Positions 1,049-41,333 of a DNA stretch of 42,972 nt are shown here, one piece after another (position 1 is the stretch's first letter; each line of letters starts with the position of its first letter). Made by a program: the position numbers and the translations under genes. The notes beneath the pieces are model-generated. The model was not told where the DNA came from, made no database searches, and was given only the letters and a program-made list of their open reading frames with translations. This DNA comes from Phoronis australis (taxonomy: Eukaryota; Animalia; Phoronida), in contig NMRA01001174.1 in assembly GCA_002633005.1 (NCBI GenBank), positions 1-42,972 of the forward strand, in the 5' to 3' direction.

Positions 1049-1105
1049 ATGGCTGCTAATAAGAAATCAAGGCGTTTACTTCTCAGTGAGGCACAATTGG
1101 AAAAG
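1049..1105 (+). CDS. Exon 1 (MAANKKSRRLLLSEAQLEK)
   Basis: ATG in context gatATGG, 19 open codons, consensus donor AAG|GTGAGT, phase 0, joins exon 2 in frame. Confidence 0.65.
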
Positions 1106-4100
1106 GTGAGTTTTTAAAATGTTTTGCCACCTGTTCGGGCCCAGCTTGATCGTCCCAGCGTAACATGTTTATGTTAATATGTTATCGAAGTTTGATTGTT
1201 TGACTCTCGGCGTTACGAACACAATCATCGTGAAGTTCCAAGTTAAGGTTTAGGCCCATAGGCGGATTTAGGGATGGCCCACTGCAGCTGGCCCGCCCTA
1301 GCTAGCTGCTGCCGCAAAAAAAGAAATCACACTGAGTGTTCCAGCAACAGCGAAATATTGAGTGCAGTAACTAGGATCACTGGTAGCGGATGTGGGAGCC
1401 GGGGGGGGGGCTCATACCTAGGGCGGAATCGTGTTCCCGTTTTTTTTTTTGTTTTAGTCCCGGCCGACGACAGGGTTTCCGAACACTGAGAAAGTCCACA
1501 TCCCCGGTCCGGAATGGCGGGCGGCCTGTGCAGATACAATCGCGCTTTTCCCAATTCCCTGAGGTCAACGTACGTCTTGCCCCCTCCCGTATCCTAGATC
1601 CGCCACGAGGCCTATACGTAATTAAGTGAATATACTCCCGCTCTTGTGTTGACAAAAAGACTCGAGAACCTCGTCAGTACTCTAAAAATGGCTTCACTGA
1701 GACTAGGAATTTCCCAACGTCACAGGGCAAAGCGGCGAGGGATGAACACCCCTTTGTATAGATAATGGTCAGAAGCTTAGGCCGGACTATCTCTGCAAGA
1801 TTGGATGATACGTGCATCCTTTTGAGGCTGTGAACATTATATAACTAGACCACTAGTGGCTGTAGCACCGACTGAATTAAGGGTTCGTTGTTCGGCAGGC
1901 CAAGCAACTCATCAATCACAATATTCCTATCTGCGCCGACGCACTCACTGGTCACCAGATTTTTTTCTTTTGTCTCATCTTTTTAAAAGTCCTATATGAT
2001 TGGCAGCACGTGTGTTTAAAATGTGTGATCTAAGCTGTTTCAATTGTGCTGGAGTTACATGCGGGATGGACGTCTGCGCTTTTCATCCCTTGTCATCGCC
2101 GCGTGCACTGTCCCACCGACTCTTATACCAAAAAACTCTTAGAAAAATAAGACAGTTTTAAGTATGTGCGCGTGTGATAGCTGTGAGACGTTAATTACTA
2201 CAGTCTACACTTCTGAGAAGACTTGCCTCAGTGTTCATGATTTCACCTGGGTTAAGTTCGGTAACCTACGCGATAATCTCGGCTATAAGCAAGACCTTGC
2301 GAAGCAAGACTGCTCTCATTGGTTACTGGCAACCGTTCAATTGTCCTAATTAAGGTCATGTTCTATAAATAACTTCATACCGCTGCATACCAAGCCAAGA
2401 AAAAACAGTGAATGTTGACTCGCTCACATTGTCCTAGGCAATGACCATCGCCTCTGTTGGCCCGAAGCAGAGGCGATGTAGAGGCTATAGGCGCTCTGTA
2501 CGCCGGAAGCTTTTCGGCGAATTTTGCCTCGCACCGACTAAACCATCAAAGTCACGTTGTTATAAATACCTTTTGCGCATAGAGGAACACCTTAGGAGGT
2601 TGTCGATGTGTTTAATTCCTTCCAACTCGAACAAATACTCCCGTTATGAAACTTTTTCTTCGAGCAGTCCCTATTTCAGTTCCCAAAATCGTGAACTCAC
2701 ATTGAGTAAAGTCGAGTGATGCTGTTGTGTCGCAGGGCTGATCTAAGTCAAAGGACACGTCAAGTTAAAATCCAATAGTTGATGAAATAAAGGATGTGTA
2801 TTCCACGTTGTCTGCGTTTCTTACAGTCCAAAATTCTAAGCTCACGTTGATTCACAGGCTTTCGCAGGTTTTCAGTCCCTCAAAATTCATCGCTGCAGCA
2901 CTGCTGATACAAGGTTATAATAAAGGTGGTGGTCCACGTTGACTCATTTGTTAAACCCACCCAGTCGCTTTAAATGCTGTCATTCTGTTAGTATTTCTAG
3001 GATTTATTATGACAACAACAACTACAACAACAACAACAACAAGATGACGCCACAAAATCCTTAATAAATATATACCCGAGCCGATACCTCAACGACAAAC
3101 AGACTTCGAGAGGCTACGTGAATGAGCAAATAACAACTCGAGACGATGCCCCCTAAATGGTACCGAAGGGCAAAATACCTACCCCAAGACAATGTTTGAG
3201 AAAAGCAGGATACCGACTACAGTAGGCAGCACGCTATGGGCGGCTGAAATTGAACATACATGTAATAGGTGGAGATGAAAATGGTGGTAAACTGGTTTCA
3301 GTAGGTGAAATGGACACGAAGGTCAACGTGGACACAATGAGTCAGGAGACCGATACATGTGTTTATCATTTGTTAAGTTTGTATAAATGCAGGGTTATTA
3401 TGAAGCTTTGATATGAACATGGGTCACAGTTTGAAAATTTTTCATATATTCTTCAGCGTCAAGATCCATGAACAACCCAAGCCCTCCCTGACTGTTCATA
3501 TCATCTACGAAAGCTCTCTGCTTGTAAGGATGATTCCATGCTGGTAGTGAATGTAGACTATGTGATTTAAAATCCGTTTTTTGTTATTTTTTTCAGGTTC
3601 TAGAAGCTGCATTAGATGGCAATTGTTCTGAACTTGTGAAATATATAAAGCGTGGGTGGGATGTGGACCAAGTACTGAATTCGTCGGTGAGTATTCACAC
3701 ATGAAAGCTCATATGATCATCATTGGCTTTTGAAGTGCACCTTTTTAAAGAAACAATCATTGTTACATGTTTCATCAGGATGGCATTGCTTTCCTGGTTT
3801 TCTGTTGAATATTTCTATATCAACACTCTATACTGTTAACCAAAGCAACAGGTGAACATCGTAGTAACATTACAACAGTGATAACAAAATATTCACTTTC
3901 AGCTGCAAAAGTGTAAATATGGCAGATGTTTTTCTTGATTTACGGAAGTATGTCGATGAGAAAAAAATATAATCAAGTTATCGTATAAAGACTGTTTAGT
4001 ATGGAAGTGCTGGAAACTTTATTAAGAAGCACTTTATAGACGCTATTGGGATAGTCATGAGAATCAGTGATCAAAAAAATATATTTACCATGGAATGCTA

Positions 4101-7100
4101 TTATTTTTTCCTGCAATATCATCGACTGTCTGCAGGTCCGCCAGAAGGATCCCGAAAATGATCGATGATAGTGCAAACAATTAGAAACTGGCCGATTTGG
4201 GCAGACCACAGTCGCACCGGAGAGACAGTCTTTGAAAAGTGGGTCCACCTTTTTTAGAGTTTAACAATAATCTTGACCTGAGTCTGTTGACAGATTTGCT
4301 TTGTTATTGTGCGGCGGTATAGGACTATAGGAAGAAAGAAGTTATTCTTTAAGAAAAAGTATTGTATAAAATGAATTTAATAATGCTATATAATTTCTAA
4401 ATTCCGTGTGTATATTGGGAGGGTGTGACATGTATCTATGCCTTGATTATTGTGGATTTACGAATGGCTCGACTGTAACATGGCGGAACTAAGGAAGGCA
4501 TGATGAAAGAGACCCTGGTAGAGATCGGTAGCTGTCTCGGGTTACGAAAAACTATCCAAACTCACGTGTTCTTTTTAAAATACACGGCGTAATCTCGCGA
4601 ATGGCCTAGCGAGTTCCTAGCGTTTTTGAACTCTACCCAGATCGAGTGGTTTTGGAATTTTGTTTTGCTTATATCATTTACTTTTTTAAGAACTTGAGGT
4701 GTTATTACCTAAATGCAATTTTCATTGCAATTGCATTTAGGATGACTTAAGATTTTTGACTATATTCGACCCTTTCATGACACCAGTAATGATTATTGCA
4801 AGCTTGATAATATGGTATGTCTAGCTCAAGCAAAAGTTCCCGCACAATTTACATGTACTTGGTGCATTAAATCACCATAGTCAAAACGTTTAAATCGTAT
4901 GTACTTATCAGACGATTCAAAACTTGCATTAAAGATGCTATACACTGTCAGTAAGTTGATTAGAATTTTTTGCGCACGGACACGTTAGTGTGGTTTAAAT
5001 GACATTTCATAATCTTCTATTATGGTTAGATGTCTTTACCAGTGTTTTTTGGGTAATAATTTCACCATCCAAACCCAAATAAGAATAGGTCAGTGTACAA
5101 TTGGGGATTCTAGACTAACACATTATCTCAGCCTTGAAGTTTACATGTTTGTACCTTTTACGAGTCCTGAGCCTAACCAAGATTCAGTTATTGTTGGTTC
5201 TTGGGATGGTTTCGAGATTTGGATAAAATTTGGCTCTATCACTGACTATGTCATGGGTGCTTTTGGAAGTCTGTAATTGATGTAGAGAATAAAAGGGAGA
5301 CAAGTTTTCCGTACCCCTTCATAAACATAATCTGGTTTAGAAAATACGTCATCTACAAGTGGTCGTGCTACCCGATTTGATAGATTACATGTCATGTGGG
5401 AAGTGAAGAGTGTATGCAGAGTATGCAATATTCGATAAGAGACAAATTCGTAAAAGAAGAGATCTTGTGAAACCTTGTCAAATGGGGATTAATTATCCAA
5501 CATTAAACCCATTTTTATATTGTTATCGTATCTCATGAACAACTTTAAACAGGAGAGAGGTAGTACTCTTTTCACTCATAAAACCAAAGTGAAATTAAGT
5601 TATTGAAAATGAGGTTCTTGTACATTTTATTCACTTTTAAAGAAAAACTGCTGTGATTCTGAATTCTTTTCTAATTGGGTACCATAATCCCAGTTTCAAA
5701 TAGAAGGTTGTCTCCTGTCAGTAGAATTTTGTTGAATAAATTAATGATCAGTAGAGGCATATCTTTATATTGGTGTAATTATTTATTTGTAATTTAGTCG
5801 GAGTAATCACCTTTTTACATGAATGTTTAATCGATTCTGCATATTGGAACACACAACACTTTTTGTTACCGACAGTCTTTATTCCTCCTCGTTCAAATGT
5901 TCCGAATAAAACTCTACACTCAACGGTACATAGATGAAGTAACTGACCTAACGACATAATTGACTTATCCCCAGGATTTTGGGTGACGGCTTACTGACCA
6001 AACAGAATGCAGCATTTTTGAAACACCTTCGTTTCCAAGCTGCCATTTTACCCGACAAACAACACGTCGCCATGTAAAATTTATTGTTTGTTTGTCGACA
6101 TTTCGCAAGGGGCGGAACTTGCGATAGGTCAATCAAAAGGTATACCTAACACGATATTTTGAAGCATACGGGGTACTTGTTCGATTCTCAAGTGGATATA
6201 AAATGACTCAGTAATGCCACCACAGAGCATAAGCTGGATACTTTCATGTTGGACAAGCTTACGCCTGTAGTCCCATGTGAACCGTTCGTTATCAGCTGCC
6301 CGGTCGTGTAACTTGAACTGACTGTACTTCGGGAGCATGTTTTCGGTTAAACAGAATTTGTTAAATGCACGACACTTTTCATTGCTCACAGTCTTTATTC
6401 CGTTGCGTTCATACTTTCGGAACAAAACTCTACTCTCAACTGAACATAGATACAGTAACTGACCTAGCGGCATAATTAAAAGACATACGATATTTCGAAA
6501 CATACTTGTTCCATTCTCAAGTGAAGATAAAATGACGCAGGAATGCCACCACAGAGTATAAGCTGATGACACACACAGTGAGACACGGCATCTGTGAAAC
6601 ACCGCAAAGAATGACAAACGAAAGGGGTCACGAGAAAGTCAGGCAAACAACTGTAACGTGCAGCGCAACCCTGTTTGCTGCTCATTCAAAACAGGCGTGC
6701 GTTCAGTAACGCTAGGACCTACGCTAGGACCTAGCTAAAATCTAGCCAAAATCACTTGTTCTCATTTAAAATACTTGGCCATATCTCACGTAATTTCACG
6801 AAGTCTTGCTTTTTAGCGAGGTCCTAGCGTTACTGAACGGGAGGCTGGCTTCTTAATTGCAGTCAAAAGTGATTAGAATACTTTCAATCGCAGCACATCG
6901 TATTCTACGTACCGAATTGACGTGCTTTCCACAATTTCTTCACGGGTGATTTTACGTTCGTGAGGTTGCAAACATTGATCGATGATGGTTTTCTAGTAAA
7001 TGTGTGACATGTGGTAGGGTCTCTTCGACTTGGAAATTTGGCAAATAATCTGGACTGTTCGCAAACAAATGTTATTTTAATACCCACATCTTAAAAGATG

Positions 7101-16100: not shown

Positions 16101-19100
16101 TTGTCAATAACAATGATTGTTCTAGCTACAACCAGTCGCCCATATTTTTAATGAACATGCCATGTCTTTGCTCTGAGGATTATTTCTGACACTAACAAAC
16201 ATACTACGAAAGCGATGTAAACTTGTTCTTTATGAATGATGATCTATTACAAGACAACTGATATATTGCATGATAAACAGAGAGTAGATTTAGTAATTGT
16301 GTGTACAATTGTGTTATTTCAACGTTTTCCGTGAAGAGTAATTAAGATTCACGGTGAAGTTAATGATTGTGAAGTTTGCTATAACTTGTTCATTGTTTCT
16401 GCAGGGTGACACAGCACTACACAGTGCAGCAGAGTGTGGACATACAGAAGTGGCGCGTGTTTTGTGTAAAGCAGGCGCTAACGTCAACAAGCAAGACTGG
16501 GTAATAGAAACTACTTGAGACGATTTTATAATTAAGACAATGTTATCTTTGTTACAAAGTTGTAGACTATCTGAAGTTTAACTAAACCTGTTGTGTGTAA
16601 ATACACTTTTTATTTCTCATCATTTCGACATGTATTTTCAATCTGTACCCGGTACATGTATCTTAAGAAACAGTGAGGTTTGAATCGTGTCAAGAATATA
16701 TTTGGCGACTTAACGTTGATATTTTTCTATTCTTAATGGTAATCGTCCATTCAACATTGCAACTTTATATTAAACAGGAACCCCTTAAACCGGTGTATAA
16801 ACACAACATGGAGGGGTCACTGTGAAGTTATGGAGGCGCTCAGTAATTTCTGACAGTCGACGTCTACACCATGTTCTGTTCTTATTTCAACGTTTTAAAA
16901 TCACCTGTACAACTTGAGTGTTGAAATCATTACAAGTATTGTAGCGTCTTAGAGGTGTCAGTAATGTTTCATTTATGTCACCTTACAAGTTCACTTTGCC
17001 CCGTGTATGTTAATTTGCTCTAAACGTTGATCGTCCATTCACACATCTCCATTATATATTACATAGTTGGGCATGACACCGCTGCACTGGGCAGCACTGG
17101 GTGGTCATACACAGACTGTGGAGTGTCTTGTGGAACACAACGCTACAGTGGATGTTCGTGATAAGGTAATTAATGACACACAGGTTATTTGGTTGAACTA
17201 GTTGTTTACACAAGAGATGATTAAAACTGTTGAAGAACAAATTTTGTAGATATTTTCCCAATTTAATGTCCTTAAACAGTGTCAAATTAAATGTCGTCTG
17301 CTTTCCAACAGAGAACTGCCAAAGCTGCATCCGAACATTTCGGTTAATCCATTATTGTTGTTTTATTTACCGATATATATTCTACATTTCGTCAAACAAT
17401 AGTTTCCTTCAGTCGATCTGGATCGCCTCATTTAGTTTCGGATTTATTTTCTACGTTATTTTGATTGTCCAACACTTTACAGCGCACAATTACTTGCTGT
17501 GTGTTACCGGCCTGTAACCAGACAGGGAACACTGAACACGCTCTGTTGCTTTGTTCTAAAACTTAACATTTCCATGTTGAAATCATTACAGGTATTGTAG
17601 CGTTTTAGAGGGGTCAGTAATGTTTCATTTATGTCACCTTACAAGTTCACTTTCCCCTGTGTATGTTAATTTGCTCTAAACGTTGATCGTCCATTCACAC
17701 ATCTCCATTATATATTACATAGTGGGGCGTGACACCGCTGCACTATGCAGCAGAGTGTGGTCATACACAGACAGTGAAGTGTCTTGTGGAACACAACGCT
17801 ACAGTGGATGTCCGTGATCAGGTAATTAATGACACACAGGTTGTTTGGTTGAACTAGTTGTTTACACAAGAGATGATTAAAACTGTTGAAGAACAAATTT
17901 TGTTGATATTTTTTGTAATCTAATGTCTCTCAACAATGTCAAATTAAATGTCTTAATTAAATAATCGCAAATTGTGATTTTGTTTGTAATTGCTGTCTCC
18001 ACACCACGTGGAGTGACGTGCACGTGACGTGACGTGCTCGCGACATTAAGTAATTAGAAACAGTTTTCTCTTCACCAGTTATACAATGAGCAATGGTTCT
18101 TTACTTGCATTTCCATATCACTCACTAAATTAATGTGACTCTGTTGTACTACATAGAATCAAACTGTGATATTTAAAACCATATTATCAATCGTTTGACT
18201 AAAACAGGTAAGCATTTAAGAAATATCGCTCATTTATATCTGAGTTTAAATGTCAGGTGTAGTCGTGCTCTGTTGAGTCACCGCTTTATACAGTAAGTAT
18301 GCAACTGATGGTGAAGTTCTGGAACAGAAAGGTATAAAACGTGACGTCCTCTTGACACACTCACTTCGCTATATTTAATTATGACCGGAATTCTCTCATT
18401 TTTGTTCACTTTAGAATGGAGACACAACATTACACCTGGCGTCGCAGAGTGGAAAGGCAGCGATCGTAGAGCTGCTTGTCAATGAAGGCAGTTGTGAGGT
18501 GACTGCCGTAAACAAGGTATCTCAAGAGTGCTGCACTCCGAGCTTAGTAAATGTTGCAATAAACGTGTTTTAAATGAATATTGAGTTCGAGGAATTGTTC
18601 ATTCATAATAAATATCTCATCAAAAATGAACAACCTCTTTACGTGGAGTTATACAAAGAGTCACTTCTTCACTGCAAGTACCTTCCCAGAACACGCAGTG
18701 CAACCAGAGTCGCTGGTGTGATCATACTATTGGCATACTAACTAAAAAACCAACCACACCATAAGGCGCCGAACACATACACAGATTTTAATTTTCTCAT
18801 CTCATAAAGTTTATGCAGGTTTTTAATCACGTTAGTGCGCATTTAGGAACCTCACTTAAGTTTTTTCAGTCAAGATTGCTTTAAAAAAGGACTATTTGAG
18901 CAATCAATTTTCTAAGTCACATTGTCGCAAATCCGTTCGGTGCAAACTTTTCGATAGAGTAGTAACAGAGCACAGCACTGTATACTCATCTGGCCCAGGA
19001 TATTCCGTGAATAAAGTCGCTTGAGTTGCAGTTGCTAGTGGAAAACATAATGCCCACACACAAAATGTGTGCTATGATCAGGATCAATCAAAATCGTTTC

Positions 19101-22100
19101 CTTTTGAGTAAAATAAATGAATATCTAAATATTGCGTTGAAATGTCTATTCCTGTTAACAATTTCAATGAAAGTGTCGAATCTCATCTTCTATTAATTAA
19201 TTAAAACCATTTCATAATTACCAAGTACTACAAGATGCGGATTTTTGTCTCAAAACCTTTTGTTGATGCTACGATGGTCAAGACAAAAGTGACAAGACTA
19301 AATCGCGATGTTTGGCGGAAATAAGAAATACGTAAACACTTTAGTTTGAAAGCCATCAAACAAGTTTGGTTCACCCCTCACAGTACCATCGTATTTCGGG
19401 TACCAGGACATAGTTCTCGGCGCAGCATCAAATGCTTTTTGGAATAAACGTTCTGGTCAAAACCTTCCGCTAGACGTGCGCTTTCATAGAAATGCAATTA
19501 CGCAAAAACTTAAATGAATGGACAAAAATATTCATATGTTTAGGAAAGATAAGAGACTCGCATTTCTTAAGATGGATTTCATGTTACGACTGAGACTAAA
19601 TCGAATCATTTTAATATCAAAAAAAACTTTGTTCAAATTTCAACATTGTAGTGAGAAGAACGGTTTGGGGGTTTCAAGTTGTGAGACTGAGTTCTTGAAC
19701 GTAGCATTTTCCATCATGTGTGCAATGAGTGTAATCTGTGGAGAATGTGGAAGTTTTAAAACTCTTTCGGTAATAGCGTTTTGGGGATGGTTTATTATTA
19801 AAATATTTATTCGCATTCCACTTTATAGTTTCAAATGTATGAACTAATAGAATGACAACCCTTTCGTATTTACTTTAGTCACTTCCATCATTATTAAAGA
19901 TGCTATATTACAGTATAATTCAATCACTTTCCTTTCTATGAGATTTATCGGGTAACATAAACTATAATCGATGACTATGGTGCAACCTACTTTAATTTCT
20001 TAGGTGTGAGCATTTTAGTACCCGGAAAACAAAATAGTTCAACAGAGGAGAAATGGACTGCAGATTACTCGAATTTGCAATAACCCCCTCAAAGTGTCTT
20101 ATTTGTGATCCGACTGCACGACTGTGTATGTTCCTGGCGTGATTTGATTTATGTACTCTGTAATGATGTTAACTTCCGAGCTCCATACGACGTAAATTGG
20201 CATGGCTTGTTTGTAAAACGTATTTAAGCCACCGATCCGGTCATAACCACCTTTCGCCGCCACTTGCACAATCTTTTTTCTTATAAATTGTGAATTTTTA
20301 GGCCCCCAGTTTCGGCTTTAAAAACCTCAGTTTCCATTATTTTTTTCCGTACAAATTGTAAGTCATTCTTGACGCATACCTGTATAAATTGCCAAGGAGC
20401 TCCTTACTGAAAGATGCACAAAATCGTACAAATAAACATGTAGAGAACTGGAAATGTGTGTATGTTTTAATATTTGATTGACGTTTATGAAGTGAAACTA
20501 CATGTGAAGGGTTCGTTGCTCTATGATTTGCATGTTTATGCTTCGACGAAAATCGGCAATTCTCCGATTTGCGAATAAAATCTGCCAATTATTAAAAAAC
20601 ATCTTCAGAAGATTGAGCTTCTAGACCCCCAAGCAACAAGTTCCGTAGATTCCAAAAAGGGCTAAGTATTTTAGTACTTTGATGTTTTAGGGCACTTTTA
20701 CCAAGGAAATTCAGTGAACCGAGGTGTAGAGCTGAGACAATAACTGTGGTGTGTCAGTAAACGTTTTTTTCATTGGTTTCCTTTTATAAATTCTGAATAT
20801 TTGGCATGTAAGCCAGTGTGTTTGTGTGTTTCATGTATTTTTACCCTACATGTATATGCGCGTCTTTAGGCCAACACGTAAAATGAAATATTATAAAGCC
20901 TACAAAACATGCAAGTATACAAAGGATATCCACCTGCGCCTATAAGAGAAGCATTATGCATGCGTTTGTGCGAAACATTTGAGTATGTAAATTTCCTTAT
21001 GGCAGTTATATTGGATATAGGTGCAAGTGCCTAAATGTGTGAACCACACAATGCTCTCCACTGGGTTACACTTTTCATTGTTTACTTAAAAAATTTCGTA
21101 TACTGTTCTTCTTTAGAATTAAAGTGCATTACAATGTGCCACGTAAACAAATCTCATACAGTGTATGCTCTAGTGGTCGAATGAATGTCAGTGGCATTCT
21201 GAATACGTGCTGTGTTGTTATTGAAACACAGAGGTTGGTTCCTGAAAGCTATTCCCACTTCGACAAAAGATTGACCAAATTCAGTTGTCGCGATATACAT
21301 GTAGGCTGAGCATCACCTGTTTTGTGATTAAGGCATTTTAAGATGGAAATCAGTGCTTGTCCGATGTTTCTTACACGACGACAATCTCAAGACTGTCGTG
21401 AACACATCGGCCTCGCGTCATCAGCTCATCATTTAGGCGAAGGTCAGTCGACGTCCGGTTGAGTGTCACCAGATCGCCAACAGATAATTCTACGACTTAA
21501 TCTGCCGAAAACACTTTGCCTAATGGTGCTTCAGTTGCTGCGTGTTGACATCGATGGCACGGACTGCGCTCCGGAAAATTTCCAAGCAATTGCCCGCCTT
21601 CCATCGACAAAAATGCGAGCCACCTAATTGTTTTAAACGTGATAGTGTCTTGATACTACCCACCAAGCACAATGATACCTTTGTTTCTGTTTGGCTTACT
21701 ATTATACGTGTGTGTTAAGGATTTGAATGCCCAACAGTCTACGTATTTTGATAATGCTTAAAAACATGAATTGTAACATTGTTAATGTTTGTAGTTTCTG
21801 AAACTAAACTACAAAATTTGATTTTTACCTCTACTACTCTGTCATTATTTGCATCACGTGACTTAACAGAAAGGAAATGTACATGATAACAAAACAAGAT
21901 TTTATTTCGTATAAATCTTTAAGATGAGATCTCAAAACGTTGTTACTGTTTCTAATACACCTGTTCGTTTTTTGTATAACTCGTGAAGATCCCTGTTGAC
22001 AGCCTCTCATGCAAAAATGCATTGTTTTAAAAACAATTACGTACAGTGTGTTGGCAAACAGTGCATAAAAATAGTTTCTGAGTCCGATCAATCCTTTTGA

Positions 22101-25100
22101 GATAGGGTACTCCGAAGTTATCCAAATTGGACATTTCCCTGGAACCCACACAATCTTAAAGAACAAGCGCCTCATACAAAGCTGCTGGTTACATATTTGA
22201 AAAAGCTTGAGTGAAGTCAAGGAGCAAAATTTACAAATCAAGTGAACAAATAAGTTACGACACACGCTGGTGTGTCAGATGCTATCTGGAGAATTACTAT
22301 CGACCACGTGATGCGTGAACAATTAGGGCATTTCACTTTGAATCTACATGCGCTATTCCCGTTCTCGTCCGTCTTTATTGAGAGTGTAATATCGCTCTAT
22401 TCTGTAATACCCGAAATTGTTCGGCAATAAAATGCCCTTCGTTATGTGACTGAAATAAATCATAGCTGTTTCATTTTGAACTTGGAGTAGTTTTTGACAG
22501 TTTAAANTGTCAACAATATATTTGGCGACTTAACGTTGATATTTTTATATTCTTAATGATAATCATCCATTCAACATTACAACTTTATATTAAACAGGAA
22601 GCCGTTAAACCGGTGTATAAACACAACATGGAGGGGTCACTGTGAAGTTATGGAGGCGCTCAGTAATTTCTGACTGTCGACGTCTACACCATGTTCTGTT
22701 CTTACTTCAACGTTTTAAAATCACCTGTAACACTTGAGTGTTGAAATCATTACAAGTATTGTAGCGTCTTAGAAGGGTCAGTAATGTTTCATTTATGTCA
22801 CCTTACAAGTTCACTTTCCCCCGTGTATGTTAATTTGCTCTAAACGTTGATCGTCCATTCACACATCTCCATTATATATTACATAGGGGGGCGGGACACC
22901 GCTGCACTATGCAGCAGGGTGTGGTCGTACACAGATAGTGAAGTGTCTTGTGGAACACAACGCTACAGTGGATGTCCGTGATGAGGTAATTAATGACACA
23001 CAGGTTGTTTGGTTGAACTAGTTGTTCACTCAAGAGATGATTAAAACTGTTGAAGAACAAATTTTGTTGATATTTTCCCAATTTAATGTCCTTAAACAAT
23101 GTCAAACTAAATGTCGTCTGCTTTCCAACAGAGAACTGCCAAAGCTGCATCTGAACATTTCAGTTGATTCATTATTGCTGTTTTATTTACCTATATATAT
23201 TCTACATTTCGTCAAACAATAGTTTTCTTCAGACGATCTGGATCGCCTCATTTAGTTTCAGATTTATTTTCTACCTTATTTTGATTGTCTAACACTTTAC
23301 AGCGCACAATTACTTGCTGTGTGTTACCGGCCTGTAACGAGACAGGGAACACTGAACACGCTCTGTTGTTTTGTTCTAAAACTTAACATTTCCCTGTTGA
23401 AATCATTACAAGTATTGTAGCGTTTTAGAGGGGTCAGTAATGTTTCATTTATGTCACCTTACAAGTTCACTGATCCCCTGTGTATGTTAATTTGCTCTAA
23501 ACGTTGATCGTCCATTCACACATCTCCATTATATATTACATAGGGGAGCCTGACACCGCTGCACTTGGCAGCAGGGTGTGGTCATACACAGATAGTGGAG
23601 TGTCTTGTGGAACACAACGCTACAGTGGATGTCCGTACTCAGGTAATTAATGACACACAGGTTATTTGGTTGAACTAGTTGTTTACACAAGAGATGATTA
23701 AAACTATTGAGTAACGAATTTTGTTAATATTTTTTGTATTCTAATATCTCTCAACAATGTCAAATTAAATGTCTTCTGCTTTCCATAGTCGGGCCACACA
23801 CCGCTGCACCTGGCAGCACAGGAGGGTCATACAGCCGTCGTACAGTGTCTCATCGAACACCGGGCCAACGTGAATGTTCCTAATGAGGTAATTATTGACA
23901 CACAGGTTGATGAACACAATACGTGACTAGGCTAATTATTGCGTGTTTTAATTAAATAATCACAAATTGTGATTTTGTTTGTAAATGCTGTCTCCACAGC
24001 ACGTGGAGTGACGTGCACGTGACGTGACGTGCTCGCGACATTAAGTAATTAGAAACAGTTTTCTCGTCACCCGTAGTTATACAATGAGCAACGGTTCTTT
24101 ACTTGTATTTCCATATCACTCGCTAAATTAATGTGACTCTGTTATACTACATAGAATCAAATTGTGATATTTAAAACCATATTTTCAATCGTGTGACTAA
24201 AACAGGTCAGCATTTAAGAAATCTCGCTCATTTATATCTGAGTTTAAATGTCAAGTGTAGTCGTGCTGTGTTGAGTCACCCGCTTTATAGAGTAAGTATG
24301 CAACTGATGGTGAAGTTCTGGAACAGAAAGGTATAAAACGTGACGTCCTCTTGACACACCCACTTCGCTATATTTAAGGATGACCGGCATTCTCTCATTT
24401 TTGTTCACTTTAGAATGGAGATACAGCATTACACCTGGCGTCGCAGAGTGGAAAGGCAGCGGTCGTAGAGCTGCTTGTCAATAAAGGCAGTTGTGAGGTG
24501 ACTGCCGTAAACAAGGTATCTCAAGAGTGCTGCACTCCGAGCTTAGTAAATGTTCCAATAAACGTGTTTTAAATGAATATTGAGTTCGAGGAATTGTTCA
24601 TTCATAATAAATATCTCATCAAAAATGAACAACCTCTTTACGTGGAGTTATACAAAGAGTCACTTCTTCACTGCACGTACCTTCCCAGAACACGCAGTGA
24701 AACCAGAGTCGCTGGTGTGATCATACTATTGGCATACTAACTAAAAAACCAACCACACCATAAGGCGCCGAACACAGACATAGATTTTAATTTTATCACC
24801 TCATAAAGTCTATGCAGGTTTTTAATCACGTCAGTGCGATACGAAGATATTCCGCGAATAAAGTCGCTTGTGTTGCAGTTGCTAGTGGAATACATAATGC
24901 CCACACACAAAATGTGTGCTATGATCAGGATCAATCAAAATCGTTTCCTTGTGAGTAAAATAAATGAATATCTAAATATTCCGTTGAAATGTCTATTCCT
25001 ATTAACAATTTCAACGAAAGTGTCGAATCCCATCTTCTAGTAATTAATTAAAACCATTTCATAATTACCAAGTACTACAAGATGTGGATCTTTGTCTCAA

Positions 25101-28100: not shown

Positions 28101-31100
28101 AAAAAGTTACAACACACGCTGGTGTGTCAGTTGCTATGGAGAAACAGTAACGACCACGTGATGCGTGAACAATTAGGATATATCAATTTGAATCTTAAAA
28201 ACAAATTCTATTGTATGCACTATTCCCGTTCTCGTCCGTCTTTACCGAGAGTGTCATGTCATTCTATTCTGTAATACCCAAAATTGTTCGGCAACAAAAT
28301 GTCTAGTTTGTTCTGTGACTAAAATAAATCAAAGCTGTTTCATTTTGAACTCGGTTTAGGTTTTGATAATTTAATTTGCATTTGCACGAGTTGTTCATTC
28401 AGCAGTGCAAATTTGTTTTTTGTTTGTCAACAAATTTCAATACATCTTGTAGGGAGGCAACACGTTGCTGCACAGCGCGTCTTCGCATGGCAAGCTAGCA
28501 GTTGTTGAACTGCTTCTGAAAATGGGTGTCGATCCGACAGTTGTTAACACGGTAAGGGTACATGTATCAATCAAATTGTGTGGTACATGTAGCTGTATGC
28601 TATCTGTGTCTGTATTGGATGTTTGCCAAAGGATAGGTAACCGGTGTTTGTAGGCATCATAACTCATTACAATTGTATATGTAATTATTGTGTATCTTCT
28701 GGTACAATGGAACAGCGTCGACGGTTGCTGGCAAAAGTCCTTTTCTACTTTTGTGTAAGCATCGAAGCGATTATCGACACGGAATTTTTAACTAATTTAA
28801 ACTTTTCATTTGATGTAGGAGCCAGATCACTATGTGATTGCTTAAAATTTGAAGAACCAACAGTTAAAAGAAGTCAATAACTTAAGTGAAGTATTATCAT
28901 TTCATTCTCCACGTTGTGTAATCGTTTTCTCTGTTTAATACGCCAATCTACCAGCCTCGCATTGCTCATTTGGAGATACAGTGTACATGTAGGTGCAGGT
29001 ATCGGGTTCGTATTGGTCCAGTTCACGTGCAACTTTAGCACACGGTAGGAAGTAAATTTTACATGAGTTGTCTTGCTGTTCAGTGTACTCTTTAAACTTA
29101 GCTATGTCTTGCAGGACGGACGAACAGCTTATGATGTCTGTGGCGACAGCTGTAATGTGTTTTTTAACAAGGTCGACGATGAGACTATCGAGAAAATAAA
29201 GAAAGTTCTTGAGGTAGGTAGTAGGGAAAAATAATCAGATTCTTGCTAAAAAGACCATATCGCTGCTTTTGTGATTAATGTAATAAACGCCATATGCACA
29301 GTTGGGAGAAAGTGCCGTGTTCGAGACCGGATAGGGACTGAGATGTTTTCAGACTTAACTATAAACCACGTGATGCGACCAACAGATGGCGTGTAAGACG
29401 ATTGATAATTCTCAGTTCTTGTATATTGTTTCAGTCTTATTTGGTTACAAATATACACCTCGCTCAGGCGGGTACAAGGAAGGTTTTCTCTCACTGCACT
29501 GGTTATCCTTGTATCATTTAAACAGCTCAGGACATCATGTAGTAAATACTTGTGTTTAGATTTTTGTTTTATTTTAATTGACAAATCGTTGTTCACTGTA
29601 GAAGCATATGCGACTCAAGCAGCAAAGCGGAAAATCACCGTCAGATGAAGACCCGGATGAAAATCTCCTCATATTGTTAGGGAGTCTGGAGGGATATCTA
29701 AATTCGAAACGTCCAGACATCCCTGTCGGCGAGTTGGACGTCAGCGTAAAAATAAAAAAGAGAGAGGACGGCACATTCCAAATGCTGAGTGTGGATACTA
29801 AGCTGATGGGTACGCCTATTATACATTGTGACTAAGTATAACCTAACATACATGTAAACTTAGTCTTCATAGACCGTTAACTTCCATATATAACGATATT
29901 TTAATGGAGGCAATTTTAGAGTTCAATACTATAAGCTGTCATTAGAATGGCGAAATTTTGCTACGAAGTGCACGATGACAGATCATTTCCAGAAGAATAG
30001 AACCGTTACTTGTTTCATTTCATTACCTGTCTGATGTATTCAAAGACAAGAGGTGACTATGACTTGCTTGCCCCTCTTCCCTTACCGCTGGGCTTTGTCT
30101 TTTTACAAATTTCGTCCCAGGCGCGTGCTACTCCCCTCTCAGCGACGCCTTTCTATTCCCCGGTGCCTGGATAGCTGCGTTTCGCGTCTTGCGGGCGTAC
30201 CAACGTTTCCGACGAATTAGTCTTTCTATATCCGCAGTACCCTTCACTCGGGCATCCGTGACCTAGTACATGTAGATAATATTTACACATAAACCAAGTG
30301 AAAACTCTTGTTTACAAACACGTTCCCAGCAATTGTCGATTATTCGGTTTCAGCACAAAGATTTAACCACCACTGCTACAGTATTCTGAGTCACTTGTGA
30401 TAGACTACATAAAACCATACTAAATTTTCACATCACAGGTTTTTCCTCAAGTTTAGGTCCTCTTTTGGTTTAGCGTATATGCAAATGATTTCGTAAATAG
30501 TGTGGATTTTTTCAAGTGCCTTCTGAACGCAAAGCATGCCATTGTTATCAATGGCTATTGTCAGTGTATTACGAGCCAGGACTAGGAATTACATAGAAAC
30601 TAGCTACGTATTGGCTTCCTGTAAGATAAACTAATGGTCAAGAAATTCAACTATATGAGTTTTAATTGCAATTATTAACTTTGTAAAATTTCGACATCGT
30701 TGTTAAGAACCAATAACTCATAATTACAAGGTGGTTAATGATGTAAAGAAGATGTTATTTGTGTACAAAATTACATTTATGTGTGGGATGTCCTTGTTTT
30801 CTCGTATATTCTCGTTTTCTGCAAACAACACAAGTGATTACTAGTGATAATTCTCCACGAAAATATAGAAAGTTGATGACAATCTCCGATTATAGTGAGA
30901 AAAATGCGTTGTTATATAATAGTTAGGTACTGAAATCGTCAAGTGGTTTATTTTAAAAATAAAATGAACACCAACGAGTTTGACTGTGCGTGGGGAAGTG
31001 GTATCGCTCAGCAATGGAGGAATAATGCACGGGAACAGGGCGTGTTTGTCCGCCACGCAGTGAAAAGTGGTTCATGAGGGCAAACTATGTTCGCTAGAGG

Positions 31101-32289
31101 GGAACAGCGTGTACGTCAACAAGATTTGGCTCGTTTACAGGGGATTGTAGGTCTATCAAAACGAAATAAATGCCGATTTTGTGAATTTAAGTGTACGGTA
31201 ACTGCCCGTCTAAGTTTACAAGTTTCATGTACTTAAAATACACTGTTTAAGGACGATTCATCTCATTTTCAGACTATTTCCCACTAGTTGTGCCCGTAAG
31301 GCAGTCCTGTCTTTTGGGCAAGTTTCCTGAACAGGGTCAGAACGTGATATCGGCTGAGCTCCACGAGTCATTGGCCAATGCGCTGAAGTCGGTTGTTCTA
31401 CTTGCACGGGCGGACGCACAAGGAGTGGGGTCCGGCTTCCGAGTAGGGCGCAATTATGTGATTACAAACTATCACGTGTACCAATGCCTGAATGTCCCCA
31501 GTAAGTATTTTGTCTGTTGATTGAATGTATGAATCCGGGTTTTTGTAATTCGCCTAGGACACATGTATAATGGTTCCACTTTCCCTGCTGTAATCAAGGA
31601 CCGGAATTTTAAGAGTTGGGTTAGATTTATAGGCCTATTTTCAGTTGTCCCCAGAGTTGCGCTGTGTATCGTCACTTGCCAATCTAATGCACTGTGATGA
31701 CGACTAGTCTGNNNNNNNNNNNNNNNNNNNNNNNNNNNNNNNNNNNNNNNNNNNNNNNNNNNNNNNNNNNNNNNNNNNNNNNNNNNNNNNNNNNNNNNNN
31801 NNNNNNNNNNNNNNNNNNNNNNNNNNNNNNNNNNNNNNNNNNNNNNNNNNNNNNNACTGTGCTTCTGCACCTCCCACTGAGGGCGCTGGCGTCGCTGTAC
31901 TTTCCGTGGGCTCGCCGTCGTAAAAACCGTTTAATTTGTAATTTCAGGTTTCTGAGTTAAACCAATGGGCACAGCGGACATTTCCTGGCCGTGCCGTATT
32001 CCCACAAATCGACGACCCACGACGAGTTCTTTACCGAACAAGTCTACAGTTTGGCAAAGGCAGCTCAGGAAGTCCTGGTTTTGTACCCGATGACAAACAT
32101 GAGGCGTGCGTCGCCGCGATACAGACACGTGGATTTCCGGATTTGCCAGATTTTCATTTCGTTTCCCAAGAGGTAGTCAAGGCTCGTTCTGTGGAGCAAG
32201 GGGTCAGGGTGGAGGCTGTCTATGACTTCCTCCACACCAACCACCCTGCACTTTGTCAGGATATCTTTGGCAACAATAAGCCTAGTTAA
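1049..32289 (+). CDS. Multi-exon gene: ankyrin-repeat array (N-cap, 9 internal repeats, C-cap) + linker + FAM111-like trypsin-fold serine protease
   Basis: GT-AG exons 1049-1105, 3597-3686, 16405-16500, 17067-17165, 17723-17821, 18415-18516, 22887-22985, 23544-23642, 23789-23887, 24414-24515, 28453-28551, 29115-29213, 29602-29809, 31273-31500, [missing exon(s), probably in gap], 31948-32289. Phases are compatible through exon 14 and there are no internal stops. Confidence 0.82.
1257..1608. mobile_element. hAT-like MITE
   Basis: Left end cataGGCGGATTTAGG pairs with right end CCTAGATCCGCCacg. GC-rich interior with poly-G and poly-T tracts. No clean TSD. Confidence 0.5.
3012..3042. repeat. (CAA)n microsatellite
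   Basis: acaacaacaactacaacaacaacaacaacaa. Confidence 0.9.
3597..3686 (+). CDS. Exon 2, N-cap ankyrin repeat (VLEAALDGNCSELVKYIKRGWDVDQVLNSS)
   Basis: Acceptor tttttttcag, donor GTGAGT, 90 nt, phase 0-0. The LxxAAxxGN...G-DV pattern runs directly into GDTALH of exon 3. Confidence 0.8.
5848..6565. repeat. Diverged interspersed direct duplication A-B-A'-B'
   Basis: ~5848-5961 resembles ~6368-6478, and ~6150-6236 resembles ~6487-6565. Confidence 0.75.
6700..6839. mobile_element. Small MITE with ~21-29 bp terminal inverted repeats
   Basis: cgttcagtaacgctaggacct at 6700 is the reverse complement of aggtcctagcgttactgaacg ending at 6839. Related diverged pieces at ~4585-4631 and ~2250-2312. Confidence 0.7.
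7428..8729. mobile_element. Non-autonomous DNA transposon with long degenerate TIRs (CA...TG ends, hAT-like)
   Basis: 7428-7605 (catgc..aaccagcc..gggctccaattt..cctttta..aaacggggtac..gtctcg..gtttctctga) is mirrored in reverse complement at 8550-8729. No intact transposase and no TSD seen. Confidence 0.65.
12458..12621. mobile_element. 164-bp hAT-like MITE
   Basis: Perfect 14-bp TIR CAGTGCTGTAGTGG / CCACTACAGCACTG. The flanking 8-mers tacacgtg and tgtaagtg match 5/8 (possibly a decayed TSD). Confidence 0.8.
15392..15547. repeat. 77-bp direct duplication centred on a single N (likely contig-overlap artefact)
   Basis: 15392-15468 repeats at 15471-15547 with 3 substitutions. N at 15469. Confidence 0.85.
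16405..16500 (+). CDS. Exon 3, ankyrin repeat (GDTALHSAAECGHTEVARVLCKAGANVNKQDW)
   Basis: Canonical ankyrin consensus, ttctgcag acceptor, GTAATA donor, 96 nt, phase 0-0. Confidence 0.93.
17067..17165 (+). CDS. Exon 4, type-A ankyrin repeat (LGMTPLHWAALGGHTQTVECLVEHNATVDVRDK)
   Basis: 99 nt, catag acceptor, GTAATT donor, TPLH motif. Confidence 0.93.
17723..17821 (+). CDS. Exon 5, type-A ankyrin repeat (WGVTPLHYAAECGHTQTVKCLVEHNATVDVRDQ)
   Basis: 99 nt, same splice context as exon 4, 656 bp downstream of it. Confidence 0.93.
18415..18516 (+). CDS. Exon 6, type-C ankyrin repeat (NGDTTLHLASQSGKAAIVELLVNEGSCEVTAVNK)
   Basis: 102 nt, tttag acceptor, AAG|GTATCT donor, phase 0-0. Confidence 0.9.
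22887..22985 (+). CDS. Exon 7, type-A ankyrin repeat (GGGTPLHYAAGCGRTQIVKCLVEHNATVDVRDE)
   Basis: 99 nt, AG/GT bounded. Positional counterpart of exon 4. Confidence 0.9.
23544..23642 (+). CDS. Exon 8, type-A ankyrin repeat (GSLTPLHLAAGCGHTQIVECLVEHNATVDVRTQ)
   Basis: 99 nt, AG/GT bounded. Positional counterpart of exon 5. Confidence 0.9.
23789..23887 (+). CDS. Exon 9, type-B ankyrin repeat (SGHTPLHLAAQEGHTAVVQCLIEHRANVNVPNE)
   Basis: 99 nt, ttccatag acceptor, GTAATT donor. Absent from duplication copy 1. Confidence 0.93.
24414..24515 (+). CDS. Exon 10, type-C ankyrin repeat (NGDTALHLASQSGKAAVVELLVNKGSCEVTAVNK)
   Basis: 102 nt. Counterpart of exon 6. Confidence 0.9.
28453..28551 (+). CDS. 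Exon 11, ankyrin repeat (GGNTLLHSASSHGKLAVVELLLKMGVDPTVVNT)
   Basis: 99 nt, cttgtag acceptor, GTAAGG donor. Confidence 0.92.
29115..29213 (+). CDS. Exon 12, C-cap of the ankyrin array (DGRTAYDVCGDSCNVFFNKVDDETIEKIKKVLE)
   Basis: 99 nt, cttgcag acceptor, GTAGGT donor. GxTAxD and I..vL pattern typical of a terminal repeat. Confidence 0.88.
29602..29809 (+). CDS. Exon 13, linker (KHMRLKQQSGKSPSDEDPDENLLILLGSLEGYLNSKRPDIPVGELDVSVKIKKREDGTFQMLSVDTKLM)
   Basis: Phase 0 acceptor ctgtag, phase 1 donor G|GTACGC, open frame (ORF 29608). Confidence 0.78.
31273..31500 (+). CDS. Exon 14, N-terminal part of the trypsin-like protease with catalytic His (...KSVVLLARADAQGVGSGFRVGRNYVITNYHVYQ...)
   Basis: Phase 1-1 exon, ttttcag acceptor, GTAAGT donor. 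GSGF...ITNxHV motif with the His codon at 31473-31475. Confidence 0.88.
31712..31855. other. Assembly gap (144 N)
   Basis: Run of N. Confidence 1.
31948..32289 (+). CDS. Terminal exon, C-terminal part of the FAM111-like protease with catalytic Ser (...DDPRRVLYRTSLQFGKGSSGSPGF...VAAIQTRGFP...SVEQGVRVEAVYDFLHTNHPALCQDIFGNNKPS*)
   Basis: atttcag acceptor, 113 open codons to TAA, GSSGSP motif with the Ser codon at 32065-32067. Missed by the ORF track because there is no start codon near its 5' end. Confidence 0.88.
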   Translation, partial: VSELNQWAQRTFPGRAVFPQIDDPRRVLYRTSLQFGKGSSGSPGFVPDDKHEACVAAIQTRGFPDLPDFHFVSQEVVKARSVEQGVRVEAVYDFLHTNHPALCQDIFGNNKPS

Positions 32290-33870
32290 TTGATTTGAGT
32301 CGACCATAGGCAGCTGTCAACCTTATACGTGTATATGTAAAGTTATTTTAGTGCAATCAGGTTGTGTATTACCATGTTTATGTAGAGATTTAGGCATGTA
32401 CATGTATATCCAGTAAACCATTTAGTTTTTGTCATACCTCAGGGCCGAGAAGCGTGGTTTATGCCCCAGAACACTGCTAACAAAAATGCCTGAATAAGTG
32501 CACATAGTGCTTATAGGTGAGTTTTACTGGCAGATTTGAGGTAAATGGTCTGATAAGATGGACCAGCGATGGTAAAACTTACTTCAGGCAAAAACCTTAA
32601 GACAAGATCTGATTTCGGCATGTTCTTGGAGCCCGTTTTATAAAACTGACTTAAGTTCATTTTTACTTAAACTGTTCCCACTGTGCATTTTCGTAGTTTT
32701 TTAGTCTTGATTTTTTTTAACTTTGAAGCAGAACAAGTTATGTAATGGGTAGAAGACGTCTGGTCACGTGACCATCAGTTGCGATGGCGAAAAACAGCAG
32801 ATCAAAAGGCGAGCACGATTTTGAGCGAGAACTGCACAATTATCATAGATACAAAGAGAAGCCGGATACGGGCATCTCACAATCAAACAATCAATGCAAT
32901 TTTCCACTTAGCAAAATTTAGTTGAGTTCGAGGTCGTAAGAACTCGACCCACTTGCACGAGAAATGCTGCAGACCCATGTCAGCCACAACCAACTAAACC
33001 AAGGGGTGGTCAATTTTCACAAAATAGACACTTAATAATCACTGGCAAAGGCCAAAGTAAGCCTGGGTCACCAGTATTCACTGTTGCCATGTTGGATGGA
33101 GCACGGTCTATACTAGGTCTATACCATGCACGCGCTCATTTGTCGTAACACTTGATCTGGGACGGGGTAGAGGGCCTGGCATCACTAGCCCCAGAATGGA
33201 AGCAGTTTGCTCGTTATTTATTAAATTTGAAAATACACTTACAAGGTGGCGAGTCTTTCATCGTTAGGCTGCTATTGTGTTTGATCGAAACACAAGTGCT
33301 TAAATTGTGCTGAACAAACTGGCTCGCGACTGAATCGCATGTTCCACCCTGACATTCCACACTCTCGTGCATCGCACAAACCGATGCCATTTATGTGCAA
33401 CTTACACGTATTTAGGAAATTTGAACTCAGAAACGTTCTCAGTCAAGTTGTTGTTACTACAACCTTCACAAACGCACATTCTCATGTCTGAAAAGGCGGC
33501 TCTCCGTGGACTTTCCTCACAACTCCTCAGTATCCCTCTTGTAAACACAACGGCGGCTGAGACGGTCTTCCATCCATTGCGTACAACCCCGATGAACAGA
33601 AATATATATATTTTCAAAATTACTGGCTTGGTTTCTTAACAGTAGGCATACTTAAGGCTATTAAATCTCTTAAGATGTGATCTTTTTCAGACGCAGGGTC
33701 ATGGTGGTCCCAAACTTTGACACTGTGGCACATCCGATGAGTTAGTCGAAATTAAGACATAAATAACTTTAAATCGAAATTGAGAGTTCTTTCTTGAGAC
33801 GGACTTGAGACAAATTTTAAGTTTTACATTAAATTGGCTGAAATGAAAGTTGGTCCGTTTTATTGGAATC

Positions 33871-41069: not shown

Positions 41070-41333
41070 AATGTCGCAGAGCGTGCACGAATTGGAACAG
41101 AAATAACTATGCCGGATTCGTGAACACCGACTACATGAACTTCACGTGCCGTCACTGGGCTGAACTTGACCCCGCGGTGACTGTTCTTGGGACAGACGAC
41201 GCCGATTCCCCCTGCGACAACTACTCCAGAGTATCCGCCAAGAACTACTGTAGAGCCATCAAGTCGGATATACCTTGGTGCTACACCGAGTTTGGATACA
41301 TGCGCCGTTCATTTTGTTTCGTACCAAGGTGTG
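41070..41333 (+). CDS. Kringle domain exon 1
   Basis: C...YAG...TCRHW...KNYCR...PWCYT...FCFVPRC, phase 1 donor G|GTAGGT. The acceptor is atypical (ttttttgagag), so the start is uncertain. Confidence 0.85.

What the first reader, a model, noticed from the sequence alone, without database searches (positions are those of the whole stretch)
1049..32289. Ankyrin-array / FAM111-like serine protease fusion: candidate intracellular sensor-protease
Seen: phase-compatible exons join ~11 ankyrin units to a trypsin-fold domain with TNYHV and GSSGSP motifs. There is no signal peptide or transmembrane segment. Known: the C-terminal pattern (vxY.t.f..GsSGSP.F...vA.h..GF...siE.G..m..i...l....p.l..diF) is characteristic of FAM111-type intracellular proteases. 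Vertebrate FAM111A has a PIP box and ubiquitin-like domains rather than ankyrins, and it restricts SV40 and poxvirus host-range mutants. RNase L is a precedent for an ankyrin sensor gating an effector enzyme. Inference: ligand binding to the variable ankyrin groove switches on the protease, giving an innate-immune or self/non-self receptor-effector in one chain. I do not recognise this architecture as characterised, but I could not search databases.
Basis: partly seen in the sequence, partly recalled or inferred. Interest (0 to 1): 0.9.

Follow-up and report, generated by a model that had tools for sequence, protein, structure and literature searches.

The report
Variable ankyrin-armed FAM111-like protease
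This invertebrate gene is transcribed and spliced so that a short row of ankyrin repeats, which differ mainly at their binding surface, is joined to a protease domain related to the human antiviral enzyme FAM111A, and it likely works as an intracellular defence protein that grips a fast-changing target and is predicted to cut it or a neighbouring protein.

Summary
The fusion is real. RNA joints chain the ankyrin exons to the first protease exon in three runs. A profile of the nearest relatives (bivalve proteins) plus the window's protease exons hits FAM111A at 1e-20; the next hit is at 2e-3.
Two corrections. (1) "~11 ankyrins" is probably inflated: 16688-22505 and 22508-28374 are two versions of one stretch meeting at a single N, likely two haplotypes, leaving 5-6 full repeats plus caps. 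(2) About 108 protease residues, with the catalytic Asp, are missing; RNA and DNA place them in the 144-N gap (really 1,098 bases), so the triad is unverified.
New: the four near-identical ankyrin exons vary most at repeat positions 2, 3, 5, 10 and 13, the five a designed-binder library picked to randomise (9/15 bases segregate, 27/263 in flanking introns); the overall dN/dS test is not significant. None of 172 fetched proteins has ankyrins; 11 of 32 non-vertebrate relatives carry other partners (DED, Death, Roc-COR, HEPN, CCCH).
Best reading: a variable-binder defence protease (0.55). The scan earlier noted an ankyrin-protease fusion of NAL1 type on other DNA.

The parts
1049..1105 (+). Exon 1: start codon and basic leader, no signal-peptide-like stretch
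   Evidence: sense RNA, 13 molecules end at 1024; joint to exon 2 not among the listed joints
3597..3686 (+). Exon 2: N-cap-like degenerate ankyrin
   Evidence: weak match to designed ankyrin N-caps, E 0.003; no Pfam hit; RNA joins it directly to 16405 (51/1/7 reads X8/X6/X7 for 3684>16408)
16405..16500 (+). Ankyrin exon 3
   Evidence: Pfam Ank 7e-11 for 16402-16500; X5 contig joint to the 17067-type exon
16688..22505 (+). Copy A of the duplicated stretch, likely one haplotype; lacks a 174-base segment holding the 23789 exon
17067..17165 (+). Ankyrin unit A1 (near-identical 99-nt cassette)
   Evidence: Pfam Ank 4e-10
17723..17821 (+). Ankyrin unit A2 (near-identical 99-nt cassette)
   Evidence: back-joints to same-type exons, 86 and 49 X8 reads
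18415..18516 (+). Ankyrin unit A4 (copy-A version of 24414)
22507..22507 (.). Single N exactly at the boundary of copies A and B: likely a contig joint
22508..28374 (+). Copy B of the duplicated stretch, likely the other haplotype
   Evidence: intron mismatch A vs B 344 of 5299
22887..22985 (+). Ankyrin unit B1
   Evidence: RNA joints
23544..23642 (+). Ankyrin unit B2
   Evidence: RNA joints (table 5c)
23789..23887 (+). Ankyrin unit B3, absent from copy A
   Evidence: joint 23885>24412 38/32/183 reads
24414..24515 (+). Ankyrin unit B4
   Evidence: joint 24513>28451 18/23/165 reads
28453..28551 (+). Last full ankyrin exon
   Evidence: Pfam Ank 9e-8; joint to 29115, 9/6/57 reads
29115..29213 (+). 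99-nt phase-0 exon, probable C-cap (judged by eye)
   Evidence: RNA joints on both sides; no ankyrin match in PDB sequences or with the window profile
29602..29809 (+). Linker exon, 69 aa, no UBL; polymorphic in RNA
31273..31500 (+). Protease exon 1: segment equivalent to FAM111A helix alpha1, first strands, catalytic His (codon 31473)
   Evidence: joint 29808>31272 11/7/200 reads
31712..31855 (.). Assembly gap (144 N, really 1,098 bases) inferred to hold about 108 codons, with the catalytic Asp
   Evidence: DNA contig across the gap and RNA loose ends at 31500 and 31947; spacing in relatives
31948..32289 (+). Last coding exon: catalytic Ser (codon 32065), C-terminal helices, stop
32290..33497 (+). 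Sense-transcribed 3' region, at least this long
   Evidence: depth table and loose end at 33497

Best explanation
The gene is spliced into one mRNA that joins 5-6 full ankyrin repeats to a FAM111-like trypsin-fold domain; the repeats differ mainly at their binding positions, so the protein likely grips a fast-changing, probably foreign, intracellular target, which would bring protease domains together and would switch on cutting of that target or of a neighbouring host protein. Shown: one transcript chain; FAM111-like domain with His and Ser; variable cassette exons; relatives with other immune-type partner domains. Inferred: intact Asp in the gap; selection by a pathogen; activation by clustering, borrowed from the dimer-dependence of human FAM111A; the substrate.
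For: (1) Sense RNA joints in 3 of 3 RNA runs of one study; joints among the 5' exons also in contigs of a second study, X5, whose RNA status is a guess. (2) Profile A1 (12 relatives plus the two window exons) hits FAM111A 8s9l at 1.3e-20 and next SplA at 0.002; Foldseek ranks 8s9l first for the last-exon model (E 0.019). (3) Among the four near-identical exons, the five codons with three or more residues are repeat positions 2, 3, 5, 10 and 13, the five high-entropy positions chosen for randomisation in PMC4308713 (section 12). There 9 of 15 bases segregate, against 27 of 263 in flanking introns (Fisher p 1e-5) and 9 of 84 in the rest of the exon. Junction letters in X5 and X8 give further residues at positions 2, 3 and 5 (read by hand from table 5c). 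(4) Repeat number varies: copy A lacks unit B3 in frame, and reads join same-type units back to back. (5) 11 of 32 relatives not labelled vertebrate carry DED (3), Death (2), Roc-COR, DZIP3-HEPN, PARP12-type CCCH fingers with a Rel-like domain (2), or weak Rel or Ig hits (2). (6) Human FAM111A needs dimerisation through helix alpha1 for substrate cleavage (PMC10920703, passages), and PMC9798293 (section 13) proposes antiviral restriction as its older role. (7) Fungal NLR ankyrin arrays show the same pattern of repeat-number polymorphism and selected binding faces (PMC4986451, passages).
Against: The catalytic Asp was not seen. Nonsynonymous to synonymous segregating sites are 16 to 2, not significant (p 0.15), from only four units that are not independent. 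Positions 2, 3, 5, 10 and 13 are the variable ones in any ankyrin, so tolerance explains where the changes fall, though not their excess over introns. The FAM111A dimer valines 347 and 351 align with His and Ala here. The last exon alone matches primate FAM111A only weakly (E 0.015) and finds nothing meaningful in PDB sequences. VIA-align ranks chymotrypsin (Z 5.2, rmsd 3.0, 77 aligned) above FAM111A (Z 4.0, rmsd 3.4, 96 aligned). 21 of the 32 relatives show no partner domain in Pfam. The conditions of the RNA samples are unknown, so the tenfold higher depth in X8 cannot be tied to infection. Many reads are only 90-95% alike, so some joints may come from paralogues, and no single read spans the whole mRNA.
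Confidence: 0.55

Rival explanations
1. Autoinhibited switch: the ankyrin array blocks the protease until a ligand releases it, and the freed enzyme cuts a fixed host target such as a cell-death executor. The sensed molecule is not the substrate.
For: Relatives fused to DED and Death domains suggest use in death signalling; a polymorphic linker could allow release or self-cleavage.
Against: Nothing here shows contact between ankyrins and protease. Variation concentrates on the face that would then have to bind a conserved protease. It differs from the best reading only in how activation occurs.
Confidence: 0.15
2. Non-immune recognition: the variable array reads a polymorphic self or gamete protein (allorecognition, sexual or genomic conflict) and the protease acts there.
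For: Diversified repeats also mark fungal allorecognition genes (PMC4986451 passages). Nothing ties the RNA samples to infection.
Against: The protein appears cytosolic or nuclear, with no signal or membrane segment. The partner domains of its relatives point to defence and death pathways.
Confidence: 0.12
3. Ordinary adaptor protease: a constitutive enzyme whose ankyrins recruit a conserved host substrate; repeat variation is drift and gene conversion at tolerant sites.
For: The overall dN/dS test is not significant. Introns of the two copies differ by 6.5%, so the organism is highly polymorphic anyway.
Against: The five binding positions segregate about six times more than flanking introns. 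A1/B1 plus A2/B2 differ at 25 of 198 bases against an intron rate of 6.5% (p 0.001), while A4/B4 does not exceed it. No conserved orthologue was found.
Confidence: 0.12
4. Catalytically dead or broken gene: the hidden exon lacks the Asp or is disrupted, and the product is a binder or decoy.
For: The Asp region was not seen; the branch is long (1.38).
Against: His and Ser motifs are intact; both loose RNA ends read open in the needed frame, with phases that close the gap; RNA is abundant.
Confidence: 0.06

Closest known systems
Human FAM111A serine protease (MEROPS S1; PDB 8s9k, 8s9l; PMC10920703, PMC9798293)
   Same: Trypsin_2-type intracellular domain; His and Ser motifs in register; best solved-structure match of the family profile; a segment equivalent to helix alpha1 precedes the domain.
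   Different: No UBL pair and no PIP box; ankyrin array instead; dimer valines not kept; the residues after the barrel that line the S1 region differ; about 20-23% identity in structure alignments.
Uncharacterised mollusc FAM111-like proteases (Sinanodonta, Potamilus, Mercenaria, Ruditapes, Mytilus, Haliotis; P0001-P0110)
   Same: Nearest sequences, 33-43% identity over the last exon; the window row falls on their side of the tree, with weak support.
   Different: None of 172 fetched proteins has an ankyrin repeat; partners are DED, Death, Roc-COR, HEPN, CCCH/Rel, Ig or unrecognised.
Fungal NLR ankyrin arrays (PMC4986451) and Ectocarpus exon-encoded LRR/TPR receptors (PMC3341825, abstract)
   Same: Near-identical repeats, repeat-number variation, changes on the binding face; one exon per repeat, as in Ectocarpus.
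   Different: No NACHT, NB-ARC or Roc switch domain: the array is wired directly to a protease; the array is short.
RNase L (recalled, no call)
   Same: N-terminal ankyrin array in front of a destructive enzyme; activation by pairing.
   Different: RNase L has a conserved array that binds one small ligand, a pseudokinase and an RNase; here the array varies and the enzyme is a serine protease.
Ankyrin plus NAL1-type protease (scan note e1-9953082, unchecked)
   Same: Variable ankyrin array fused to an intracellular trypsin-fold protease in an invertebrate.
   Different: Protease lineage: no NAL1 entry among the 22 PDB matches at E up to 1, FAM111A at 1e-20.

Membership tests
Vertebrate-type FAM111A/B | Two N-terminal ubiquitin-like domains | tested here: not met
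   A profile of 17 vertebrate N-terminal regions scores 0 bits or less on the six window exons scanned, which cover the leader, caps, linker and protease; the linker exon has no BLAST hit at E up to 1 among 172 proteins. Not filed as FAM111A/B.
Vertebrate-type FAM111A/B | PIP box (mammalian FAM111A) | tested here: not met
   No match to a recalled PIP pattern in the visible exons
Vertebrate-type FAM111A/B | Dimerisation through helix alpha1 (V347, V351) | tested here: inconclusive
   Equivalent segment present; positions 347 and 351 are His and Ala, as in bivalve P0014; no complex was modelled
FAM111-like Trypsin_2 proteases without UBLs (invertebrate forms of PMC9798293) | Closest characterised relative is FAM111A | tested here: met
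   Profile A1 against PDB sequences: 1.3e-20 versus 0.002 for the next family; the same profile retrieves proteins named FAM111A. The link runs through the profile; the window's exon alone is weak.
FAM111-like Trypsin_2 proteases without UBLs (invertebrate forms of PMC9798293) | Catalytic His and Ser | tested here: met
   TNYHV and GSSGSP align with H385 and S541 of 611-aa primate FAM111A
FAM111-like Trypsin_2 proteases without UBLs (invertebrate forms of PMC9798293) | Catalytic Asp | not testable with these tools
   Inferred to lie in the gap 31712-31855; read laying gives only 30 letters of each loose end
FAM111-like Trypsin_2 proteases without UBLs (invertebrate forms of PMC9798293) | Intracellular: no signal peptide or membrane segment | tested here: met
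   Highest 19-residue hydropathy 1.16, basic first exon; hidden exon not covered; no dedicated predictor
NLR / STAND receptors with ankyrin sensors | Central NACHT or NB-ARC NTPase | tested here: not met
   RNA joints leave only a 33-aa and a 69-aa exon between the last ankyrin and the protease
NLR / STAND receptors with ankyrin sensors | Repeat-number polymorphism and variation on the binding face (works-like feature) | tested here: met
   formal positive selection not shown
NAL1-type proteases | Sequence-profile match to NAL1 structures | tested here: not met
   No NAL1 entry among 22 PDB matches at E up to 1
RNase L | Pseudokinase and RNase domains (recalled) | tested here: not met
   The effector is a trypsin-fold domain

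The most novel reading that the evidence does not exclude
A natural, re-programmable restriction protease: an animal gene that builds DARPin-like binders from exchangeable one-exon ankyrin cassettes, diversified at the positions that protein engineers randomise, and wires them straight to a FAM111-type protease. It would be one member of an undescribed invertebrate system in which this protease is a mobile immune effector swapped among ankyrin, DED, Death, Roc-COR, HEPN and CCCH modules, and it would support defence as the original job of FAM111.
Probability: 0.35. Interest if true: 0.85.

Novelty: new variant of a known kind. Interest (0 to 1): 0.66.

Why it matters
FAM111A is studied almost only in mammals, and whether its first role was antiviral is an open proposal (PMC9798293, section 13). 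An invertebrate version with a diversifying binder in place of the UBL/PIP module makes this testable: the binder's ligand can be pulled down, and cassette swaps should redirect it. The relatives show that the same protease is attached to several death- and immune-type domains in molluscs, which points to an overlooked effector class. A binder-protease chain with exchangeable cassettes is also a natural model for targeted protein cutting.

Tried and rejected
No genome is held for this window, so paralogues and copy number could not be counted; X1 contig depths were not used as copy number. No RNA holder was listed in the index; the RNA evidence comes from laying raw-read runs.
An open frame just after 31557 looked like the missing exon, but RNA leaves 31500 into other sequence, so it is intron.
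The last exon alone found no longer homologue among 108 candidates, no Pfam family and no meaningful PDB sequence. P0011 among the 15 representatives is a repeat-rich protein without a protease domain and was left out of the alignments.
The Atlas gave short trypsin-fold fragments, mostly bacterial, for the last exon (a lead only) and nothing for the linker. The linker model is low-confidence (pLDDT 67, pTM 0.43) and was not searched.
The tree is the quick version, 83 rows. It kept 138 of 170 profile-matching proteins that passed length and motif filters, then every third vertebrate; the window row is a long branch in an unstarred group, so no origin is claimed.
Two separate genes: rejected. 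A used tandem duplication: disfavoured, since no joint from the 24414-type exon back to the 22887-type exon is among 15 listed joints (106 not shown; the smallest RNA-only joint listed has 47 X8 reads, the forward joint 165); it is not excluded.
No complex prediction was run, because the protease domain is incomplete in the window.
Paper searches with no description of this fusion.
Full report
Verdict. The finding describes a real, expressed gene that joins an ankyrin array to a FAM111-like serine protease domain. The function remains inferred.

Gene structure. The window is spliced eukaryote-type DNA, 38% GC, with gaps; no whole genome is held. Fifteen exons have AG/GT ends where expected. 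Nine encode full ankyrin repeats (3 of 3 tested pass Pfam Ank). Exon 2 weakly resembles designed N-caps. The exon at 29115 is a probable C-cap by eye only. Three stranded RNA runs of the same species label cover the gene on the sense strand. Joints with reads in X6/X7/X8 are 23885>24412 38/32/183, 24513>28451 18/23/165, 28553>29117 9/6/57, 29211>29600 19/14/209 and 29808>31272 11/7/200. Exon 2 joins directly to 16405, so the 12.7-kb intron holds no used exon in those reads. This is a chain of short reads, not one molecule, and many reads are 90-95% alike, so alleles or paralogues contribute. X8 is about ten times deeper than X6 and X7 at similar read numbers; the sample conditions are not given.

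Correction 1, repeat count. 16688-22505 and 22508-28374 are two versions of one stretch, 89-96% alike, meeting at the single N at 22507. A contig boundary exactly at the repeat boundary is the usual sign of two haplotypes laid end to end (own knowledge). No back-joint from the last exon of the unit to its first is among the listed joints (106 not shown). At 33 of 37 listed variant places in copy B that I checked, the reads carry copy A's letter (these are the best-supported rows of about 1,450, a biased sample). Each path gives 5 (A) or 6 (B) full repeats plus caps, and a protein of about 610-645 residues. A true or polymorphic duplication is not excluded.

Correction 2, missing exon. The two visible protease exons are out of phase and give 48 residues from His to Ser, against a median of 156 in 90 relatives. 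RNA leaves 31500 and enters 31947 from sequence that is not in the laid stretch, and a DNA contig of X1 shows 1,098 letters in place of the 144 N. Read by hand, both 30-letter loose ends are open in the required frame, and the 5' one ends in the F-x-Y strand motif of the family alignment. The catalytic Asp should lie in the unseen part and is unverified.

The protease. The last exon finds 15 proteins among 1.84 billion representatives, best E 7e-10 at 40% identity; 14 align as proteases or protease fragments (for P0001 and P0005), and the 5 named among 10 looked up are uncharacterised bivalve proteins. A profile of 12 of them plus the two window exons matches FAM111A structures at 1e-20 and 1e-19; the next match is SplA at 0.002. 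The same profile retrieves many proteins named FAM111A. His and Ser align with H385 and S541. A model of the last exon (pLDDT 83) has FAM111A as the first Foldseek row, below significance (E 0.019). VIA-align confirms the chymotrypsin fold but ranks FAM111A ninth (Z 4.0). UBLs and a PIP box are absent, as PMC9798293 reports for UBLs in coral and lancelet forms (passages). In a quick tree the window row is a long branch on the mollusc side, unstarred. The organism was not identified.

Architecture among relatives. None of the 172 fetched proteins matches an ankyrin profile at E below 0.01. Coverage is limited: each search scored only the 7,994 best word-sharing candidates, and 59 of 179 hits were not listed. 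Of 32 longer relatives not labelled vertebrate that I scanned with Pfam, 11 carry another domain: DED in three Haliotis proteins, Death in two Mytilus proteins, Roc-COR, DZIP3-HEPN, PARP12-type CCCH fingers with a Rel-like domain in two, and weak Rel or Ig hits in two. The other 21 show only the protease. The domain therefore behaves like a mobile effector (inference). PMC8195603 lists trypsin-like peptidases as effectors of bacterial conflict systems and has no mention of FAM111 in its main text (passages).

The ankyrin cassettes. Units A1, A2, B1 and B2 are exon-plus-intron cassettes about 656 bases apart. Their exons differ at 18 of 99 bases and their flanks at 27 of 263 (p 0.05). The five codons with three or more residues are repeat positions 2, 3, 5, 10 and 13. 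PMC4308713 chose exactly these five as high-entropy randomised positions, plus position 33, and places them on one binding surface (section 12 and passages; numbering checked against its C-cap). At these codons 9 of 15 bases segregate (p 1e-5 against introns); the rest of the exon matches the intron rate, 9 of 84. Junction letters from X5 and X8 add, read by hand, E, D and V at position 3 and W and R at position 5, and four versions of the exon 2/3 hairpin (table 5c). Copy A lacks unit B3 in frame, and reads join same-type units back to back (86 and 49 reads in X8; 47). Against this: 16 nonsynonymous to 2 synonymous sites is not significant (p 0.15), the units are few and related, and these positions are the tolerant ones in all ankyrins.

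Mechanism. Shown: one transcript chain, variable binder, FAM111-like domain with His and Ser. Inferred: the binder is shaped by a fast-changing ligand, most likely from a pathogen; binding concentrates protease domains; pairing orders the active site as in human FAM111A, where alpha1-mediated dimerisation is needed for substrate cleavage (PMC10920703, passages); the bound target or a neighbour is cut. The dimer step is the weakest, since the two valines are not kept. Confidence 0.55; rivals are listed separately.

Novelty. Repeat sensors joined to destructive enzymes are a known kind (fungal NLR arrays, PMC4986451 passages; Ectocarpus exon-encoded repeats, PMC3341825 abstract and outline; RNase L, recalled). 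Ankyrin plus FAM111-like protease was not described in the listings of seven paper searches, which cover only the open library. The sequence lists behind the network figure of PMC9798293 and the source data of PMC8195603 were not opened and could hold such a protein. Of PMC9798293 I saw the abstract, passages and sections 11 and 13. The scan's own unchecked notes describe a parallel ankyrin plus NAL1-type fusion and immune-fused NAL1-type families on other DNA; nothing like this sequence was noted before. Rating: new variant of a known kind, interest 0.66.

Noticed in passing
window 41057-41341 and 42181-42483, + strand: Two kringle-like exons of a downstream gene; the second passes Pfam Kringle at 5e-19, the first was judged by eye.
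   Followed up: partly
window 29667-29698: In run X8 the linker exon is replaced by a version inferred to be 21 bases longer and in frame (loose ends at 29666 and 29699, 153 and 89 reads): the linker is polymorphic too.
   Followed up: partly
window about 5700-7000, 8400-8750, 2400-2700, 12400-12700: Intronic repeats transcribed on both strands with many loose ends in all RNA runs: probably dispersed mobile-element fragments.
   Followed up: no
window 42575-42822: Imperfect palindrome of about 250 bases, 73% self-complementary, possibly a MITE.
   Followed up: no
window 36225-36274 and 39506-39556: A 50-base element in inverted orientation, 94% alike.
   Followed up: no
window 15391-15554: A 79-base unit in two copies with the single N at 15469 between them: probably a second small contig-overlap artefact.
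   Followed up: partly
whole window: The octamer TACATGTA occurs 42 times in 43 kb.
   Followed up: no
P0093-P0095, P0019-P0024: Mollusc FAM111-like proteases fused to tandem DEDs (Haliotis, a caspase-8-like layout), Death, Roc-COR, HEPN or CCCH/Rel domains; unnamed in the databases and worth a study of their own.
   Followed up: partly
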